Shown: piece by piece, positions 4,153 to 12,994 of the stretch
Layout: every line of letters begins with the position of its first letter
How positions within the stretch are numbered: the stretch's first letter is position 1
Source of the DNA: a virus
Taxonomy: Duplodnaviria > Heunggongvirae > Uroviricota > Caudoviricetes
Length of the DNA: 64,000 nucleotides
Strand: one strand, 5' to 3'
IMG/VR virus record: IMGVR_UViG_2698536476_000008
The notes under the pieces: generated by a model
What the model was told of the DNA's origin: nothing
What the model saw: the letters and a program-made list of their open reading frames with translations, nothing else
Database searches by the model: none
Translations under genes and position numbers: made by a program

Positions 4153-4508
4153 AGCACCACGTCCTGTGTGATAGTTATATCCCTGATACGAATGGATATT
4201 TTCAACTTATCAAAAGCATCTCCCTCGGCTACTGACAAGCCAGAAATCGGTATGTCAGGTAAATCTACCGTCAGTTTTTGCAACAGCATTGCCTCAACCG
4301 CAATTTGAACATGCGACAAGTTGGTCGGTTCGTGTTTAAACTGCGGTAAAACATTGCCCCATGACGGATCTCCGTATACCTCACCCTGATAAGTGTTTAG
4401 CCACTCATATAAACGAGCGCCCCAGGCCTCCTCCTGGGACTCATACGTTTTTACGCCGGATAACTCCAGCGTCAGTAAAGGATCAATTTCATTATTGTTG
4501 GCCATCAA
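4149..4508 (-). CDS. Baseplate wedge protein, gp25/W-like (119 aa)
   Basis: ORF track; size and position immediately downstream of Sit-like gene. Confidence 0.4.
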   Translation of the reverse strand: MMANNNEIDPLLTLELSGVKTYESQEEAWGARLYEWLNTYQGEVYGDPSWGNVLPQFKHEPTNLSHVQIAVEAMLLQKLTVDLPDIPISGLSVAEGDAFDKLKISIRIRDITITQDVVL

Positions 4509-7500
4509 TCAACTCTCGCGTAGTCATTCATCAACGGATCATCAATTGACAGTGGCACCGTGCGCATAACGCCCGGTTGAGGCGTGCTGACCTTTACGAC
4601 AGTTCCCTGGCCTTTCGCCGAGTCTTTAGTGTGCTCTTCAATCCTGGCAAGCAATGAGGTCATCTGCGCAAACAGCCGCTTCGTTTCACCATCAAGTGAA
4701 ACGGTATTATCAGCCAACTGCATTGTCGGCTTGGCACCGGAGCCGCCAAGGTCACTAATAACCTGTCCGTCTATCTGCATACGACCGGTTGGTTGCTGCA
4801 AATCGTTGGCGGCAGTCGTCACCTGGGACGTGGAGGCTGGTTCAGGCGCATTATTTTTCCGCATCCCCGGCGAGTTGCGGAGTTTATCAAATAGTCCATC
4901 AATCCCCATTTGTGCGCCGAGTTGGTCAAAGTAACTTGAGTTGCTGGCCACCGGACGCGCCTCTTCAACTGGCATCGGAGTATCAACATACACATTGCCA
5001 GCTGCTGTTGCGGTCCCCTTCCCTCGTGCACGTTCTTCGAGCGTTCCCTGAACGACTTCCCGACGCATACCCCGGCCATTCATGAATTTGTTGACCAGAT
5101 CGTTAACGCCAACAGCATTGCCAATTTTGTCTACCAGACCGCCTTTCTCAAACGGGCTATCACCAGGGGTAAACGCCAGGCCAGTAGACTGATCGATAAC
5201 AGCGTTATCAGGCAGTGGTCCCCTCACTCCATATTGCGCCCCACCCTGTGCTCCTGCTCCAGGTGTATAGATTTCACCACCTAAATAGCGAGCACGATGA
5301 GTATTGACCTTGATCGCGTACTCACGGTTTTCTTTCGATAAGTCACCTGTGCCTTTTTTCCACTTATTGATAGTGCCAAACCCAGCATTATATGCAGTGA
5401 TGGCCTCGTTTAAGTCTCCATTGGCTTGCTTCAGATATTTGCTCATGAGAAGAGCCGCAGCTTCTGCCGATTTCACAGGATCAAACGATTCACCTTCAGC
5501 TAAGCCAGTCTCTTCACGAGCAATCCCCGTGAACTGAAACATCCCCAGAGCACCGGTTTGGGATTTTGCATACGGATTACCACCAGATTCAGTTGCAGCA
5601 ATCGCGTAAAGAGTGCCTTCTGGAAGACCGTATTTATTCTCTAGTTCGGCAAAATACGGAGCCAACTTATCGAGATTTGCCTTACCTTCAGCGCCAAGAC
5701 TTCCGACTTTTACATCCAAGTTGCCATTGTTGTAGGTATCCGCAGCTTTCTGAATGTCATTCCTGGTGCCAGTGGTATTAAGCGACGATGATGACGAGCT
5801 ATTTTGACCAATAGCTTTATCAATTTTCTGCAACGCGCTATTGCCCGTTTCTACGGCATTTGCATTGATAATCTGATTGGCAGTTTGTTTAACTGTTTTA
5901 TTGCTATCTTTCGCTGTGTCCAGTGCCGCATTTATCACGCGGGTGGCAATATTACTCTGTTTGGCATCGGATTCAGTTTTAGAATCAGACGTCTCCTGGT
6001 GGCTATTAACCGGAGCTTTTAACTCTGGAGTGATTTCTTTCGCATTAGCCTCGCCGATCGGATTGGGTATTTTTGATACAATCATTGCCGCAGGGGTATT
6101 TTTAACGGCATCAACCGCTGCATCTAATGCTTTACCTGGTAAATTTTTAACCCCATCCCAAATATTACCAGCCGCCTCTTTAATGTGTTTCCCTGGGTTC
6201 TTAATGAAATCAATTGCACTATCAATTGCATCACTGAAAACCTGTTTCAGGTTATCGACAGTAAAGAAGTCTTTGATGGCATCCAGCTTTTCAAGCAGCT
6301 TATTAGATGTATCGCTAAACCATGCTGAAACAGCATCACCAATCTTTGCTGTGTAATCATCGAACTTGGTAGAAATGGTGTCGCCAAGGTTAGAAATATA
6401 TGTTTCTAAGTTGGTAATCCCACTATCAATGGCCTGGGCAATACTTTCCGTCGAAAATGATTGCAACATATTGCCGATATCCTCAAATCCAAGTGATTTG
6501 AGAACCTCACCAATGGCGCTGCTAATACCAGATACCAGTCCCCCCATATCAAGAACATTAGCTAACGTATAAGCGGCTTTTTGCTGGAATGATGGATCTT
6601 GTCCTGATTTAAGCCCAAACGCTCGACGTTGCGCTTCTGTATCATTCCAACCGGTTACCGCATCATAAATACCTCCAGCCACTGTGCCGACTAGGGGAAT
6701 TGCGCGTAACGCCCCTTTACCAACTGCCTTTAATCCAAGTTTACCTGCTGCCCGGGCAGCCAAATCTCCGCCTTCATGGGCGAGAGTCTTCTTGCCACCA
6801 CCGCGTAGCACTCCTACAAGTTTCTTTGCCCCCAGAGCGCCAAAAGCGAGTGCTCCAGCTTTTTTCAGCATGCCACGCCCCATTAACAACGACGCGACGC
6901 CACCGGCCCCCTTCCCTAACAGGCTAAATAGTTTGGACAGCAAGCCGCCCTTCTTTTTCCCGGTGTTTTTGGCTATCTGATCAAGGGCGCGGAGAATCTT
7001 GTCATTGCCCTCTTTAATTTCGCTGGTCTGCTCCTGAAGTTCCTGAACCGTCCGTTTTTGGGTGTTAACCTGAACGACATCGGCACTATTTTGCGATTTA
7101 CGCCTAAAAAAACCTTTTCTACGGCTGTTATCGTCATTGCCACGAATCACATCGGCAATAGACTTTCTGGCACCATTAAGCGATCCACCAACTTCTTTTG
7201 ATATCCCGCCAAGCTCCTTCCCTGCTGCCCACAATGGACCAGCAACGGCATAACCTAACGCATCGACGGCACGAGTCTCTGAAGGGTTACCTATGCCTTC
7301 AGCTACTTTTGACAGTTTTTTTAATAAACCTGATTCAGCATTTAGACGCTCATCATCCTCTTTGCGCCTGGCCTTTTCAGCACGTTCAGCACGGGCATCT
7401 TCCGCTGCGGCCTTACTCCCTGACTTTCCAATAAAACGACCACGCGCATCGCGTTGGTTTTGGCTTTTTTGCGCACCGCCTTTTTGACCGAACATTTCGC

Positions 7501-7897
7501 GAGCGTGTTCGGCTGCTTCGGTCCGTTGCGCCTTTACATCTTCTGTTATAGCCTTCTTGCGTCGTTTTTTACCCTTTCGCGTAGTTGATTTGGCCTGCGG
7601 TTCCTGTAGAGCAACATCCTCCTGAACTACACGAGAAACGTCCCCTAAATTAAGCCGTTTCATTGCCTCAACAATAGGGTCCACTGATGGCGCATTGGCC
7701 ACAAAGTCTGGCCGGGAATTTTCGATTGTGCGATTTAATGCCGACACACTGCGAGAGACAGGATCAACTGTAGCAACTCGCCCACCTTTCAAATCTTCAA
7801 CGGCTTCCCGAATACCTGCAAGCTCTTCCAGCTCTTTTGCGCTGGCGGTTTCAACCGTCCTTATCACATCGTCAATGTTGGCGTTTTTTCTTTCCAT
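4505..7897 (-). CDS. sit: Sit-like 1130-aa virion protein with soluble lytic transglycosylase domain (tape-measure-like position)
   Basis: SLT motif ...AIAATESGGNPYAKSQTGALGMFQF...AYNAGFG in translation; size matches P1 Sit as recalled. Confidence 0.8.
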   Translation of the reverse strand: MERKNANIDDVIRTVETASAKELEELAGIREAVEDLKGGRVATVDPVSRSVSALNRTIENSRPDFVANAPSVDPIVEAMKRLNLGDVSRVVQEDVALQEPQAKSTTRKGKKRRKKAITEDVKAQRTEAAEHAREMFGQKGGAQKSQNQRDARGRFIGKSGSKAAAEDARAERAEKARRKEDDERLNAESGLLKKLSKVAEGIGNPSETRAVDALGYAVAGPLWAAGKELGGISKEVGGSLNGARKSIADVIRGNDDNSRRKGFFRRKSQNSADVVQVNTQKRTVQELQEQTSEIKEGNDKILRALDQIAKNTGKKKGGLLSKLFSLLGKGAGGVASLLMGRGMLKKAGALAFGALGAKKLVGVLRGGGKKTLAHEGGDLAARAAGKLGLKAVGKGALRAIPLVGTVAGGIYDAVTGWNDTEAQRRAFGLKSGQDPSFQQKAAYTLANVLDMGGLVSGISSAIGEVLKSLGFEDIGNMLQSFSTESIAQAIDSGITNLETYISNLGDTISTKFDDYTAKIGDAVSAWFSDTSNKLLEKLDAIKDFFTVDNLKQVFSDAIDSAIDFIKNPGKHIKEAAGNIWDGVKNLPGKALDAAVDAVKNTPAAMIVSKIPNPIGEANAKEITPELKAPVNSHQETSDSKTESDAKQSNIATRVINAALDTAKDSNKTVKQTANQIINANAVETGNSALQKIDKAIGQNSSSSSSLNTTGTRNDIQKAADTYNNGNLDVKVGSLGAEGKANLDKLAPYFAELENKYGLPEGTLYAIAATESGGNPYAKSQTGALGMFQFTGIAREETGLAEGESFDPVKSAEAAALLMSKYLKQANGDLNEAITAYNAGFGTINKWKKGTGDLSKENREYAIKVNTHRARYLGGEIYTPGAGAQGGAQYGVRGPLPDNAVIDQSTGLAFTPGDSPFEKGGLVDKIGNAVGVNDLVNKFMNGRGMRREVVQGTLEERARGKGTATAAGNVYVDTPMPVEEARPVASNSSYFDQLGAQMGIDGLFDKLRNSPGMRKNNAPEPASTSQVTTAANDLQQPTGRMQIDGQVISDLGGSGAKPTMQLADNTVSLDGETKRLFAQMTSLLARIEEHTKDSAKGQGTVVKVSTPQPGVMRTVPLSIDDPLMNDYARVD

Positions 7898-9496: not shown

Positions 9497-10087
<591 letters not shown>

Positions 10088-10121: not shown

Positions 10122-10598
10122 TCATTTTGCGCGCTTCAGGCAGCCATCTTCAGGTGCCGCGTTGAAAAGCTCTGCGGCCTTACGTAGCGTAAATGTTGCG
10201 ATTTTTTTTCCGTCTACGTATGCATCGAATGTTTTAACTTCCATATCAGGGGTATCTGACCAAAAACCATACCAGTAACTATCACCCACAGAGGAACCGA
10301 TAGAACTGATAGGATATTCATCATCACCAACTTTCAGCGTTATTTGTTCTTTTTTAGCATCAAATGACTCACCGCCAGGTTCTGTTTTCATGAGAGTGAG
10401 TAGTCGTGTTCCTACTTGATTGGGATCCGTATTATTAAATCCAACATCGCACTCAAATGTAAGCGTATAATTATCTTTGCTGGAAACAGCATAAGAACGA
10501 ACACCATGAGTCTCGCCGGTTGACCATTTGCTTACATTTGCCATTGATGAAAATGGAGTAAGCAAAGCAAGAATTAGAAAAAATCGTTTGATGCGCAT
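10122..10598 (-). CDS. Secreted/periplasmic protein (158 aa)
   Basis: N-terminal signal peptide MRIKRFFLILALLTPFSSMA; AT-rich flanks. Confidence 0.55.
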   Translation of the reverse strand: MRIKRFFLILALLTPFSSMANVSKWSTGETHGVRSYAVSSKDNYTLTFECDVGFNNTDPNQVGTRLLTLMKTEPGGESFDAKKEQITLKVGDDEYPISSIGSSVGDSYWYGFWSDTPDMEVKTFDAYVDGKKIATFTLRKAAELFNAAPEDGCLKRAK

Positions 10599-10659: not shown

Positions 10660-11307
10660 TTACCATTCATAGGGTAAATTAAGCGCTTTTAAACCTTGCT
10701 GGAAGGTATTAAGTGAACCGTTCTTTTGTTGTTCCATTTGTTCGCGTGCCGCTTTCTCATACTGCTCCATCCGTTGGTTATACTCTTGCAATTCCTCTGG
10801 TGAGAGGTTTCCCATTGGGGAGTTTGTACCCGGCCCCCTGGCCCGCTCTTCAAGCGTACCCTGCACGTTTTGATGGCGCATTCCTGGGGCATTTCTGATT
10901 GAGTCAATGCCATTTCTTCCAACGTCTTCTTTATTAACGGCATTGCTCGCCACCAGCACACCCCAGCTAGGAATAGCAAAATCAGGAGCGGTTTCGCATG
11001 CCTTTACCATATAATCGAAAGAGCTTCGATTGATCTCGTTTGCGTCGGGATTTAACAGGCGAGAATATTGATATTTAGCATTTTCGTTGGTTGCGACTTT
11101 ATACAGTTCTTGCTGCACCATCGCTTCAGAAAGTTTAAGGCGTTTCATATCTGACAGTAACTTCTTGCGCATGGATTCGTCTTGACTGACAGCAAAGCCG
11201 TAAACGTGCCCAAGGTATTTCGTATAATCGGTACAAATCTCCTTTACGCTTGATGCTGCATTAACAGTCCCAGCCATAAATAATAACGGTAGTAATAGTT
11301 TTCTCAT
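10660..11307 (-). CDS. Secreted protein carrying a Sit-like motif
   Basis: Probable start at internal Met (MRKLLLPLLFMAGTVNA signal peptide) preceded by AGGTGAGG; C-terminal IRNAPGMRHQNVQGTLEERARGPGT resembles Sit NGRGMRREVVQGTLEERARGKGT. Confidence 0.55.
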   Translation of the reverse strand: MRKLLLPLLFMAGTVNAASSVKEICTDYTKYLGHVYGFAVSQDESMRKKLLSDMKRLKLSEAMVQQELYKVATNENAKYQYSRLLNPDANEINRSSFDYMVKACETAPDFAIPSWGVLVASNAVNKEDVGRNGIDSIRNAPGMRHQNVQGTLEERARGPGTNSPMGNLSPEELQEYNQRMEQYEKAAREQMEQQKNGSLNTFQQGLKALNLPYEW

Positions 11308-11404
11308 TATAACCTCACCTGCCTTATAACTCATTTAGGGTACATATTTTCGCCTTTAAAAAAAAGAGGTTATTAGATCCAATTGTGTATTTATTAAGCA
11401 TGCA

Positions 11405-11420
11405 ATGCTCTAATAAATTT
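11405..11420 (+). promoter_or_regulatory. C1-operator-like site (ATGCTCTAATAAATTT)
   Basis: Match to recalled P1 C1 operator consensus ATTGCTCTAATAAATTT; lies upstream of icd-ant locus. Confidence 0.55.
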
Positions 11421-11732: not shown

Positions 11733-11954
11733 ATGGTTAATGCCAATCCTTGCGCACGCCAAGAATTCATCTGGCGGTTCTATTCCTGTAAAAAACACCA
11801 CTATCACTTCGTTATCGCAGCAACAGAAGACGAAGCACGCTCTCAATTGCCTGATGGCCCCTGCATTTTTACTGCCCGTTTTTCAACTAACTCGCGCAAT
11901 TCACTTAGTTACTGGAGCCTCCCCTTCTCTGCCGACGTTCAGGGGGGTTTATGA
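11733..11954 (+). CDS. icd: Icd-like small protein (73 aa), overlaps ant start
   Basis: 73-aa ORF ending in ATGA overlap with ant; paralog at 62222-62443. Confidence 0.55.
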   Translation: MVNANPCARQEFIWRFYSCKKHHYHFVIAATEDEARSQLPDGPCIFTARFSTNSRNSLSYWSLPFSADVQGGL

Positions 11955-12994
11955 AAAAACCTCTCGTCACCCGTAATGACATAGCCGAAGCGATCGCCCT
12001 GCATACTGCCTGTATGCCGACACGGGAGATCCCCGGCGCAATTGCCAACTATTTCATGATAACCAGACGTTTTTATACCCGAACAGATAAGGCTGTGATC
12101 AACAAGCTACTGATAGCCGAGATCAGGGATTATTTGATTGAACAAGGACGTCTACGTTACGCAACAGTGGCAGCAGAAATGAGAAAGGAGGCACATAGAA
12201 TGACCGGTAATAATTTGAATGTTGAAAAAACAGCACCTGTTACGTCAGCTACGCCAGCACCAGCCGTGAATATCATCCCCAACACCGGAGACACAATCGA
12301 CAGCCTGACACTGTTAAAGATGGTCAATGAAGCGCGTAAGTTATGTGGGGAACCAGAGGTTCGGAACAACAAATTCATCGAAAAAATACTCGACGAATTA
12401 GAAGGTGAGGACGGTTACACAAAAAGTGCAACCGTGCCGCCAGGTGGCGGTACGCCTATGGTTGTCATAACCATGACCTACAAACAAGCCCTGCGAGTCG
12501 CCGCACGCGAATCAAAAGCCGTCCGCCGTTCGCTGATCGACAAACTGGAAGAATTGCAGCAGGCAAACTCCCCTGCCCCATCGATCCCCCAAACATTACC
12601 AGAAGCTCTACGCCTGGCTGCCGAGTTGGCAGAACAGAAAATGCAGCTGGAACAACAGCTGGTGGCCGCAGCCCCTAAAGTCGATTTTGCCGACCGGGTA
12701 TCAGTGGCCAATGGAATCCTGATCGGGAACTTTGCAAAGGTCGTTGGACTTAAGCAAAACGCCCTTTTCTCATGGTTGCGCCAGAACGGCATTCTCATGG
12801 CTTTTGGTGCGCGCAAAAACGTACCGCGCCAACAGTACATCAACGCCGGGTATTTCACGGTGAAAGAAGTGGTGCTGGATGATGAAAATGGCTACCAGAT
12901 ACGGCTGACGCCCCAATTAACGGGTAAAGGCCAGCAGTGGTTAACTCGCAAGCTACTTGATGCTGGTTTGTTAAAACCAGTAGCAATAGGTTAA
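11951..12994 (+). CDS. ant: Antirepressor Ant (347 aa) with C-terminal KilAC-type domain
   Basis: C-terminal PKVDFADRVSVANGILIGNFAKVVGLKQNALF...GYFTVKEVVLDDENGYQIRLTPQLTGKGQQWLTRKLLDAG. Confidence 0.75.
   Translation: MKKPLVTRNDIAEAIALHTACMPTREIPGAIANYFMITRRFYTRTDKAVINKLLIAEIRDYLIEQGRLRYATVAAEMRKEAHRMTGNNLNVEKTAPVTSATPAPAVNIIPNTGDTIDSLTLLKMVNEARKLCGEPEVRNNKFIEKILDELEGEDGYTKSATVPPGGGTPMVVITMTYKQALRVAARESKAVRRSLIDKLEELQQANSPAPSIPQTLPEALRLAAELAEQKMQLEQQLVAAAPKVDFADRVSVANGILIGNFAKVVGLKQNALFSWLRQNGILMAFGARKNVPRQQYINAGYFTVKEVVLDDENGYQIRLTPQLTGKGQQWLTRKLLDAGLLKPVAIG

What the first reader, a model, noticed from the sequence alone, without database searches (positions are those of the whole stretch)
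10660..11307. Secreted protein shares a ~25-aa motif with the Sit C-terminal region
The signal-peptide protein carries IRNAPGMRHQNVQGTLEERARGPGT, matching Sit NGRGMRREVVQGTLEERARGKGT (encoded around 5040-5100); Sit also repeats NSPGMRKNN. A periplasmic protein mimicking part of the injected protein could act in superinfection exclusion; it lies next to the immunity locus.
Basis: partly seen in the sequence, partly recalled or inferred. Interest (0 to 1): 0.65.

Follow-up and report, generated by a model that had tools for sequence, protein, structure and literature searches.

The report
Secreted sim-locus protein copies Sit motif
A P1-like phage carries, at the site where P1 keeps its superinfection-exclusion genes, a secreted protein whose flexible linker holds a 36-residue motif otherwise found only in the phage's injected tape-measure protein Sit, which makes it a testable candidate for exclusion by self-mimicry.

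Summary
The 215-aa ORF (10660-11307, minus strand) has a Sec-type signal peptide and shares a collinear 36-47-aa block with Sit residues 927-969. Support: BLASTP E=7e-9, hhalign 95% probability (E=2e-8), and reciprocal PHROG profile hits. Thirteen of the 19 identical residues use different codons, so the peptide is conserved, not a recent DNA copy. A profile scan of 1.84 billion representative proteins found the motif only in this ORF family and in P1-type Sit proteins.

The window is a P1-like phage-plasmid. The ORF sits in the exact slot of P1 simA-simB-simC, between pmgC and the C1 operator/c4-icd-ant. It is not related to SimC. P1's 52-aa "simA" is the truncated 5' stub of this gene. The AlphaFold model shows a confident helical domain with no recognisable structural relative (residues 20-120), a disordered linker holding the motif, and a C-terminal helix. 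A YfjT-family secreted protein always follows the ORF.

Best reading (about 0.4): a prophage periplasmic exclusion factor that presents the Sit motif as a competitor. No phenotype, binding partner or significant Sit/ORF covariation was obtained. I found no description of this motif sharing in the searchable literature. Interest is moderate.

The parts
10660..11307 (-). Target CDS, 215 aa, stop codon included. Full-length 'simA'-type gene, PHROG family phrog_3933.
   Evidence: ORF list. Shine-Dalgarno GGTGAGG sits 5 nt before the ATG at 11307. phrog_3933 hit E=5e-137. The first 36 aa are identical to P1 SimA.
11257..11307 (-). Predicted Sec signal peptide, aa 1-17: MRKLLLPLLFMAGTVNA, cleavage before ASS.
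   Evidence: Read from the sequence: basic n-region, hydrophobic core, V-N-A cleavage site, no lipobox Cys. pLDDT is below 50 for aa 1-15. Inference only; no signal-peptide predictor was available.
10918..11256 (-). Conserved N-terminal all-helical domain, aa 18-130, with invariant Cys25 and Cys104.
10804..10911 (-). Shared motif in the ORF, aa 133-168: GIDSIRNAPGMRHQNVQGTLEERARGPGTNSPMGNL.
   Evidence: BLASTP E=7e-9. hhalign E=2.1e-8. PHROG cross-hits. pLDDT 42-53, so predicted disordered. N139, G142, M143, R144 and Q146 are invariant or nearly invariant across the family.
10663..10803 (-). Variable C-terminal tail, aa 169-215: a long helix ending in LNLPYEW.
   Evidence: Helices at 170-196 and 199-208, pLDDT 57-76. 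Other lineages replace this tail with Cys-containing tails or delete it.
4505..7897 (-). sit: tape-measure / structural injection transglycosylase, 1130 aa.
   Evidence: phrog_2533 full-length hit. Pfam SLT at aa 748-857, E=9e-27. P1 annotation. Sit is treated as the tape-measure protein in PMC12810830 and PMC10695390.
5327..5656 (-). SLT lytic transglycosylase domain of Sit, aa 748-857.
   Evidence: Pfam PF01464, 93 bits. pLDDT 79-95 in the model of Sit 731-1130.
4991..5098 (-). Shared motif in Sit, aa 934-969: LVNKFMNGRGMRREVVQGTLEERARGKGTATAAGNV.
   Evidence: Conserved in the E. coli, Salmonella, Klebsiella and Cronobacter Sit lineages while the flanking sequence varies. Low pLDDT in the model.
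4850..4906 (-). Second, partial copy in Sit, aa 998-1016: GIDGLFDKLRNSPGMRKNN. Only the N-terminal half of the motif is present.
   Evidence: Present literally. Match to the ORF is weak, 8/15 identical, E=0.2. It lies in a 43-aa insertion specific to the E. coli lineage.
10122..10598 (-). Downstream partner gene, 158 aa, secreted, YfjT/YkfB family (phrog_3429).
   Evidence: phrog_3429 hit E=1e-80. Homologous to the genes that follow the ORF in L073 and L026, E=4e-32 and 1e-25; the L073-type genes carry PF27224 YfjT. RefSeq names it 'YfjT/YkfB family phage-associated protein'.
11404..11420 (+). C1 repressor operator (Oc4/Op51), AATGCTCTAATAAATTT, between the ORF and c4-icd-ant.
   Evidence: 17/17 identical to the annotated P1 operator at L001 3128-3144. 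It adjoins the position of the P1 annotators' predicted PsimA promoter. That promoter is a prediction only, and the consensus scan did not recover it.

Best explanation
The gene is the intact form of the 'simA' gene of the P1 superimmunity (sim) locus.

The protein is exported to the periplasm. It has a folded helical domain with no recognisable structural relative, probably disulphide-bonded, followed by a flexible linker. The linker displays a ~36-aa linear motif (helix-NxxGMRxx-VQGTLEERARGxGT...GN). The only other place this motif occurs is just after the lytic-transglycosylase domain of the P1-type tape-measure/injection protein Sit.

The most likely function is superinfection exclusion by the prophage against P1-like phages, probably together with the YfjT-like protein encoded downstream. 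In the periplasm the displayed Sit motif would compete with, or co-assemble with, the same segment of an incoming Sit for its partner. That partner could be a host envelope component or Sit itself. The result would be a stalled post-adsorption, Sit-dependent step of DNA delivery.

Shown: the motif sharing, its specificity, the locus, the predicted domain layout and the conservation. Inferred: export, expression in the lysogen, exclusion and the competition mechanism.
For: - Motif significance.
- Selection acts on the peptide, not on a recent DNA copy: 13 of 19 identical residues use different codons and nucleotide identity is 55/90. dS is saturated between ORF lineages while NxxGMRxQ stays nearly invariant.
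- The motif is exclusive to the two families in a scan of 1.84e9 representative proteins: 9 hits, all from the ORF family, Sit or fragments of them.
- The ORF motif is predicted disordered between folded parts, and the same region is low-confidence in Sit.
- The Sit motif is conserved across diverged Sit lineages and across two SLT alleles.
- P1 and P7 Sit are 100% identical to this window's Sit over the 59-aa query containing the motif.
- The ORF occupies the exact slot of P1 simABC. sim causes superinfection exclusion, possibly by preventing DNA injection into the cytoplasm (citations).
- Every other cassette examined at this slot also encodes proteins with signal-peptide-like N-termini, apart from a 357-aa protein in L026 and a TM-like 119-aa protein in L073.
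- The slot is a known hypervariable region (PMC9603915).
- The family is confined to P1-like phage-plasmids of Escherichia, Salmonella, Klebsiella and Cronobacter.
- A 163-aa allele class ends right after the motif. This suggests that the N-domain plus motif is the retained core.
- There is precedent for exclusion proteins that act on tape-measure proteins: T4 Imm binds the T4 tape-measure protein (bioRxiv 10.64898/2026.03.06.709160).
Against: - No phenotype, expression or interaction data exist.
- The ORF is not homologous to SimC, the gene annotated with the P1 sim function. P1 itself keeps only a 43-52-aa stub of this gene.
- Many P1-like elements have lost the gene (25 stubs among 72 loci), so it is dispensable.
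- Several lineages (Klebsiella, Cronobacter and some Salmonella) retain only NAPGMR[HQ]Q and replace the QGTLEERARG half with unrelated Cys-containing tails.
- Cognate ORF/Sit motifs are not significantly more alike than non-cognate pairs: p=0.07 for 5 lineages and p=0.11 for 8.
- The promoter is only a weak prediction, and the consensus scan did not recover it.
- No match to known defence-system models (PADLOC).
Confidence: 0.4

Rival explanations
1. Spackle-like inhibitor. The periplasmic protein binds and inhibits the lytic-transglycosylase domain of incoming Sit. In Sit the shared peptide would be a cis element that contacts the SLT domain; the ORF would supply it in trans. The outcome is exclusion or protection from lysis-from-without, by enzyme inhibition and not by competition for a third partner.
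Confidence: 0.15
2. Historical fragment capture without mimicry. The sim slot is a recombination hotspot. A piece of sit was once fused behind a secreted helical domain, and the protein now has another periplasmic or lysogenic-conversion role in which the motif is a linker with only residual conservation.
For: The locus is mosaic, with breakpoints at aa 36/37 (the P1 stub), after GMRHQ, and after ERARGPG. Half of the motif is dispensable in several lineages. dN in the motif region is equal to or higher than in the N-domain. There is no significant covariation with the cognate Sit.
Against: The disordered linker retains NxxGMRxQ nearly invariantly although dS is saturated. 19 of 30 residues remain identical to Sit although synonymous sites are randomised. 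The 163-aa alleles keep the full motif and drop everything after it. The family is never found outside phages that carry Sit.
Confidence: 0.25
3. Shared docking or processing motif. Both proteins use the same host periplasmic factor (a chaperone, protease or peptidoglycan-associated protein) for their own folding, processing or localisation. The ORF would not antagonise Sit.
For: The motif behaves like a short linear motif in both proteins: low pLDDT, with short helices flanking NxxGMR. The N-terminal half recurs as short repeats in Sit. That other tape-measure proteins depend on periplasmic chaperones (HK97 and FkpA) is from my own knowledge.
Against: The profile scan of 1.84e9 proteins found no host protein or other phage family with the motif. 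That is unexpected for a general host docking signal. The location in the exclusion locus is unexplained under this reading.
Confidence: 0.15
4. Chance or low-complexity similarity with no common origin.
For: The block is short (36-47 aa) and rich in G, R and E.
Against: E=7e-9 pairwise with composition adjustment. Profile-profile E=2e-8. Reciprocal HMM hits. These two families are the only ones hit in 1.84e9 proteins.
Confidence: 0.02

Closest known systems
P1 sim (superimmunity) locus: simA-simB-simC
   Same: Same genomic slot, between pmgC with the late promoter LPsit and the C1 operator Oc4/c4-icd-ant. Same orientation and the same upstream DNA, 93% identical. The products carry signal peptides. 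The first 36 aa of the ORF equal P1 SimA. sim is reported to cause post-adsorption superinfection exclusion.
   Different: There is no sequence similarity to SimC, the gene annotated with superimmunity. SimB and SimC share no motif with Sit. P1 SimA is only a truncated stub. No exclusion has been shown for the full-length gene.
T4 Imm, a superinfection-exclusion protein that binds the tape-measure protein (bioRxiv 10.64898/2026.03.06.709160)
   Same: [quoted passage not shown]
   Different: That Imm is a membrane protein is from my own knowledge. The ORF has a cleavable signal peptide, no TM segment and a different fold. No report says Imm shares a motif with its target. Homology between the ORF and Imm was not tested directly.
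T4 Spackle (Sp), a periplasmic inhibitor of the tail lysozyme gp5 (from my own knowledge)
   Same: A small, secreted, all-helical, phage-encoded periplasmic protein. Its target would be the peptidoglycan-degrading tail protein of an incoming virion.
Ltp (phage TP-J34) and HK97 gp15: exclusion proteins whose target or escape route involves the tape-measure protein (PMC3952083 for Ltp; HK97 from my own knowledge)
   Same: Prophage-expressed envelope proteins that block DNA entry after adsorption, with specificity determined by the tape-measure protein.
   Different: Ltp is a Gram-positive lipoprotein and gp15 is an inner-membrane protein. Neither is known to mimic the tape-measure protein. No homology was tested here.
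P1-type Sit tape-measure / structural injection transglycosylase (phrog_2533)
   Same: Shares the 36-aa post-SLT motif.
   Different: The ORF lacks the SLT domain, the Gly-rich hydrophobic region and everything else in Sit. Only 36-47 of its 215 residues align with Sit.

Membership tests
P1 SimA (gp043) / 'simA domain protein' | Sequence identity to the 52-aa P1 SimA product, at the same position upstream of the sim cassette | tested here: met
   P1 SimA is MSYKAGEVIMRKLLLPLLFMAGTVNAASSVKEICTDYTKYLGHVY|AFAINDY. The part before the bar is identical to the window ORF read from its upstream ATG. The upstream DNA is 93% identical. Some homologues are named 'simA domain protein' by their sources. 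The window gene is therefore the full-length form and P1 simA is a stub.
P1 SimC (the annotated superimmunity protein) | Sequence homology to SimC | tested here: not met
   BLASTP best hit E=28.
P1 SimC (the annotated superimmunity protein) | Confers post-adsorption exclusion of P1 when expressed | not testable with these tools
   Requires plating, transduction and DNA-entry assays.
Sim-locus envelope cassette (positional class) | Encoded between pmgC and Oc4/c4, transcribed divergently from c4-icd-ant, product carries an N-terminal signal peptide | tested here: met
   The signal peptide is read from the sequence. The P7 cassette proteins carry annotated signal peptides. SimB and SimC have signal-like N-termini.
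Sit / P1-type tape-measure protein (phrog_2533) | SLT domain plus a long tape-measure architecture | tested here: not met
   Only ORF aa 129-171 match phrog_2533 (positions 929-972). Pfam finds no SLT domain in the ORF.
PTP-like phytase (Pfam PF14566) | Score above the gathering threshold and a catalytic CX5R P-loop | tested here: not met
   26.7 bits against a cut-off of 27, with a partial match to profile positions 46-132 of 158. The only two Cys residues (C25 in CTDYTKY, C104 in CETAPDF) have no Arg at position +6 (sequence).
Known anti-phage defence systems (PADLOC-DB v2) | Match to any model of a known or candidate defence protein | tested here: not met
   No hits at E<=0.1 for the ORF, its partner, SimB, SimC, Upf50.0 or Upf50.5.
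T4 Spackle-like periplasmic tail-lysozyme inhibitors | Structural similarity to Spackle, or binding and inhibition of the tail muramidase | tested here: inconclusive
YfjT/YkfB family (PF27224), for the downstream partner 10122-10598 | Homology to PF27224-annotated proteins | tested here: met
   BLASTP E=4e-32 to the L073 gene that carries PF27224. RefSeq names a 99.5%-identical locus 'YfjT/YkfB family phage-associated protein'. The local Pfam copy gave no hit for the window protein itself.

The most novel reading that the evidence does not exclude
P1-like phages practise exclusion by self-mimicry. The prophage exports a decoy that displays a linear motif copied from its own tape-measure/injection protein. 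The motif marks an unknown, essential periplasmic interaction in P1 DNA delivery, with a host factor or with Sit itself. The P1 laboratory strain's 'simA' would be the fossil of this system after simB/simC replaced it. The divergence of the E. coli Sit motif (NGRGMRRE plus an added second NxxGMR copy) from the ORF-like ancestral form (NAPGMRHQ) could then be an escape signature.
Probability: 0.3. Interest if true: 0.65.

Novelty: new variant of a known kind. Interest (0 to 1): 0.5.

Why it matters
How P1 moves its DNA across the periplasm and inner membrane is unknown. Sit is unresolved in the P1 cryo-EM structure (PMC12810830), and the mechanism of the sim exclusion locus has not been worked out.

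A 36-residue motif conserved in all P1-type Sit proteins and copied into a secreted prophage protein at the exclusion locus gives two handles. It is a defined peptide for fishing out the interaction partner. It is also a candidate exclusion gene whose specificity can be tested by motif swaps.

If mimicry is confirmed, it would add a mechanism to the known tape-measure-directed exclusion proteins. It would also matter for P1 transduction and for the ecology of P1-like phage-plasmids, which spread resistance genes. About 1.5% of complete E. coli genomes carry the full two-gene module (79 of 5426) and 4.7% carry some remnant.

It also corrects an annotation: P1 simA is a gene fragment, not an 'accessory superimmunity' gene.

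Tried and rejected
- A word-indexed protein search with the motif alignment returned only five fragments and was uninformative. The full HMMER scan replaced it.
- A PDB sequence search with the family profile found nothing below E=0.03.
- PADLOC, NCBIfam and Pfam gave no family above threshold. The near-threshold PTP-like phytase hit was rejected because there is no CX5R motif.
- The covariation test, cognate against non-cognate Sit/ORF motif identity by exhaustive permutation, was not significant: p=0.07 and p=0.11. Too few independent lineages were available.
- A distant pair (ORF P0039, Sit P0038) could not be placed in one genome. The contigs are too short, or the locus is absent next to that sit. 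P0039's motif is not uniquely closest to P0038's.
- dN/dS could not be computed because dS is saturated.
- The model of Sit 731-1130 did not place the motif against the SLT domain. This gives no support for a cis SLT-binding role.
- SimB, SimC, Upf50.0, Upf50.5 and the YfjT-like partner were checked for Sit-like segments or matches elsewhere in the window. None was found.
- The P1 genome paper (Lobocka et al. 2004) is not held, so I could not check whether the motif was noted there.
- The scan of GTDB species genomes added only four loci and no new lineage.

Full report
WHAT THE WINDOW IS

The region is a P1-like phage-plasmid (Punavirus). On the minus strand it carries sit (4505-7897), pmgB, tub and pmgC (9497-10063), then two short secreted ORFs (10122-10598 and 10660-11307). 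On the plus strand follow c4, icd (11733-11954), ant1 (11951-12994), kilA and repL. This matches the P1, P7 and vB_EcoM-Ro157c2YLVW records. The closest deposited phage (Ro157c2YLVW, 96% identity) annotates both short ORFs as hypothetical.

CHECKING THE OBSERVATION

The target CDS most plausibly starts at the ATG at 11307, which has GGTGAGG five nt upstream. It encodes 215 aa. The N-terminus MRKLLLPLLFMAGTVNA|ASS is a typical Sec signal with no lipobox. This is read from the sequence; no predictor was available.

The shared block is significant by four tests:
- BLASTP ORF vs Sit: 23/47 identical, E=7e-9.
- Six-frame search of the whole window: Sit is the only other match, E=1.9e-7.
- Reciprocal PHROG hits: the ORF family phrog_3933 matches Sit 929-970 (3.7e-6) and the Sit family phrog_2533 matches ORF 129-171 (8e-8).
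- hhalign between an ORF-family alignment and a Sit C-terminal alignment: 95.3% probability, E=2.1e-8 over 36 columns, ORF 133-168 against Sit 934-969.

Of 19 identical residues in the 30-aa core, 13 use different codons, and nucleotide identity is 55/90. The similarity is therefore maintained at the protein level and is not a recent DNA duplication.

The second Sit copy, NSPGMRKNN (aa 1008-1016), exists but is weak on its own: 8/15 identical to the ORF, E=0.2. It lies in a 43-aa insertion present only in the E. coli Sit lineage.

HOW SPECIFIC THE MOTIF IS

I built a 50-position profile from ORF-family and Sit motif segments (A2). It was scored by HMMER against 1.84 billion representative proteins. 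Nine proteins reached E<=0.001. All are ORF-family members (P0020, P0005, the distant 176-aa P0039), P1-type Sit proteins of about 1100 aa (P0034, P0035, P0038), or fragments of these. No host protein and no other phage family carries the motif.

In the phage collection the post-SLT part of Sit is confined to P1-like phages, including Cronobacter phage JK004. Other SLT-bearing tail proteins align only over the SLT domain.

THE LOCUS

In P1 the same slot holds simA-simB-simC. In P7 it holds a lipoprotein and a DUF5384 secreted protein. The flanks (pmgC/LPsit on one side, the C1 operator Oc4 and c4 on the other) are conserved. The window has a 17/17 copy of Oc4 at 11404-11420, and the upstream DNA is 93% identical to P1.

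The sim region is one of eight known hypervariable regions of P1-like phage-plasmids (PMC9603915). simABC are non-essential (PMC10695390). sim is cited as causing superinfection exclusion, possibly by preventing DNA injection.

The ORF has no similarity to SimC. However, P1 SimA (52 aa) is identical to the start of the window ORF up to ...GHVY and then diverges into a stop. P1 simA is therefore a truncated remnant of this gene. Stubs of 41-43 aa are common in other P1-like elements: 25 among the 72 loci examined.

Except for a 357-aa protein in L026 and a 119-aa TM-like protein in L073, the cassette proteins at this slot begin with signal-peptide-like sequences. Of all of them, only the ORF family shares anything with Sit.

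FAMILY ANATOMY

Homologues occur only on non-mobilizable plasmids or contigs of about 90-100 kb from Escherichia, Salmonella, Klebsiella, Shigella and Cronobacter. Among 5426 complete E. coli genomes, 255 have some match and 79 have the full two-gene module. 253 of the 257 matching places are on plasmids.

The N-terminal domain (aa 18-130) is conserved, including invariant Cys25 and Cys104. N139, G142, M143, R144 and Q146 of the motif are invariant or nearly so.

After GMR[HQ]Q the family is modular:
- Some lineages have the full VQGTLEERARGxGT...GN half (window; Salmonella L073 and L077; K. aerogenes L075; P0028).
- Others switch to unrelated Cys-containing tails (Klebsiella L041, Cronobacter JK004, Salmonella L045 and L047).
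- A frequent E. coli allele of 163 aa stops just after ...ERARGPG.

dS between lineages is saturated, so these are old alleles under purifying selection. dN is 0.1-0.3 in the N-domain and 0.2-0.76 in the motif region.

In every lineage that carries a full-length or near-full-length ORF, a YfjT/YkfB-family secreted protein follows it. This holds even in JK004, where no immI genes are called beside the module.

STRUCTURE

The model of Sit 731-1130 shows a confident SLT domain and low confidence for everything after it. The motif there has the same helix / NxxGMR loop / short helix pattern. Sit is the tape-measure protein and is unresolved in the P1 cryo-EM maps (PMC12810830).

Both copies therefore look like displayed linear motifs, and the model gives no sign that the motif docks onto the SLT domain.

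CONSERVATION AND COVARIATION

In Sit the block TGLAFTPG.SPF.KGGLVDK.G...G...L..KF.N..GMR..VVQGTL..RA.G.GT.T..GN is conserved across the E. coli, Salmonella, Klebsiella and Cronobacter lineages and across two different SLT alleles. The surrounding sequence varies.

I tested whether cognate ORF and Sit motifs are more alike than non-cognate ones, which would indicate co-adaptation or gene conversion. Exhaustive permutation gave p=0.07 (five lineages, 30 aa) and p=0.11 (eight lineages, first 8 aa). This is not significant with the few lineages available.

The N-terminal half of the ORF motif (NAPGMRHQ) is nearly constant. It equals the Sit form in the K. aerogenes lineage (L075) and differs from it only at the first residue in two of the four Salmonella lineages examined (L045, L047). 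The E. coli Sit reads NGRGMRRE.

INTERPRETATION

The facts fit a prophage-encoded periplasmic protein that presents a copy of a conserved Sit segment. That supports a role at the Sit-dependent, post-adsorption step of P1-like infection, which is the step the sim locus is reported to block. I rate motif-mediated exclusion (competition or co-assembly) at about 0.4.

The rivals are:
- A Spackle-like direct inhibitor of the Sit transglycosylase (0.15).
- A captured fragment with no mimic function, in a protein with some other envelope role (0.25).
- A shared host docking or processing signal without antagonism (0.15).
- Chance similarity, which is effectively excluded.

Against the favoured reading: there is no phenotype or expression evidence. 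The gene is often lost. Half of the motif is dispensable in several lineages. No covariation was detected.

COMPARISON WITH KNOWN SYSTEMS AND NOVELTY

Exclusion proteins that act on tape-measure or ejection proteins are known. T4 Imm binds the T4 tape-measure protein. Ltp of TP-J34 is another example. HK97 gp15 and T4 Spackle are from my own knowledge. None is described as carrying a copy of its target's sequence.

Full-text searches found no paper describing this ORF family or the motif sharing. The 2004 P1 genome paper is not held, so it could not be checked.

If functional, this is a new variant of a known kind. The bioinformatic finding itself, including that P1 simA is a stub, appears undescribed. 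Interest is moderate: it is a well-supported and directly testable lead into an unsolved step of P1 infection, but the function is not demonstrated.

Noticed in passing
window 11199-11334 (- strand); L001 2900-3058 (P1 simA): P1's annotated 52-aa 'simA' ('putative superimmunity accessory function') is the 5' stub of the full-length 215/224-aa gene in this window. It is identical up to ...GHVY and then diverges to a stop. Stubs of 41-43 aa are widespread in P1/P7/SJ46-type elements (25 of the 72 loci examined).
   Followed up: yes
L026-L038 (e.g. L026 9974-12147): A frequent E. coli allele of the ORF (163 aa) ends right after the shared motif (...ERARGPGVAP*). It is followed by a different cassette: a 168-aa YfjT-like secreted protein and a 357-aa protein. 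This marks a second recombination breakpoint at the motif boundary.
   Followed up: partly
window 10122-10598 (- strand): A YfjT/YkfB-family secreted protein (158 aa, two conserved Cys) follows the ORF in every lineage examined (E. coli, Salmonella, Klebsiella, Cronobacter), at only 28-34% identity between lineages. This suggests a fast-evolving two-gene module. Its function is unknown, and it shares no segment with any other protein encoded in the window.
   Followed up: partly
window 11404-11420: A perfect copy of the P1 C1 operator Oc4/Op51 (AATGCTCTAATAAATTT) lies about 100 nt upstream of the ORF start. It adjoins the position of P1's predicted PsimA promoter. Whether C1 influences the ORF's expression is open.
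   Followed up: partly
window 4850-4990 (Sit aa 970-1016) and loci L041, L045, L047, L073-L077: E. coli-lineage Sit proteins carry a 43-aa insertion after the motif that contains the second NxxGMR copy, in two alleles: RNSPGMRKNN and INARGMRSNN. The Salmonella, Klebsiella and Cronobacter Sit proteins lack the insertion.
   Followed up: partly
window 5018-5020 (Sit Lys960): Among otherwise nearly identical E. coli Sit proteins, the residue inside the motif at ERARG-K-GT is polymorphic (K, R or N), and the preceding Gly959 is replaced by Glu in one allele (REKGT). The ORF family has P, L or N at the 960-equivalent position. This could be drift or a specificity or escape position.
   Followed up: no
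window 5327-5707 vs P0057/P0058, L026, L031: Two clearly different alleles of the Sit SLT domain and its immediate C-terminal flank circulate in E. coli P1-like elements (...EYAIKVNTHRARYLGGEIYTPGAGAQ... vs ...GEYVTRVRGYQQMLNNGAVYGSKVDHS...). Both are joined to the same conserved post-SLT block that contains the motif.
   Followed up: partly
window 10981-11238 (ORF aa 24-109): The helical domain gives a just-sub-threshold Pfam hit to PTPlike_phytase (26.7 bits against a cut-off of 27). No CX5R catalytic motif is present, so it is probably a spurious helical match.
   Followed up: yes
L082 (Cronobacter phage JK004) 9119-10168; L081 (metagenome): In JK004 the ORF + YfjT-like module sits next to pmgC, and the genes called beyond it show no sign of c4-icd-ant (they were not identified by homology). 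A more distant P1-like metagenomic contig (L081) has sit with the motif but no module called before pmgC. The module's linkage appears to be to the tail operon and not to immI.
   Followed up: partly
window 10663-10683 (ORF C-terminus LNLPYEW) and L003 1645-2184 (P7 Upf50.0, ...ASSWW): Two unrelated secreted proteins that occupy this slot end in aromatic C-termini (YEW and SWW). This may be coincidence and was not analysed.
   Followed up: no
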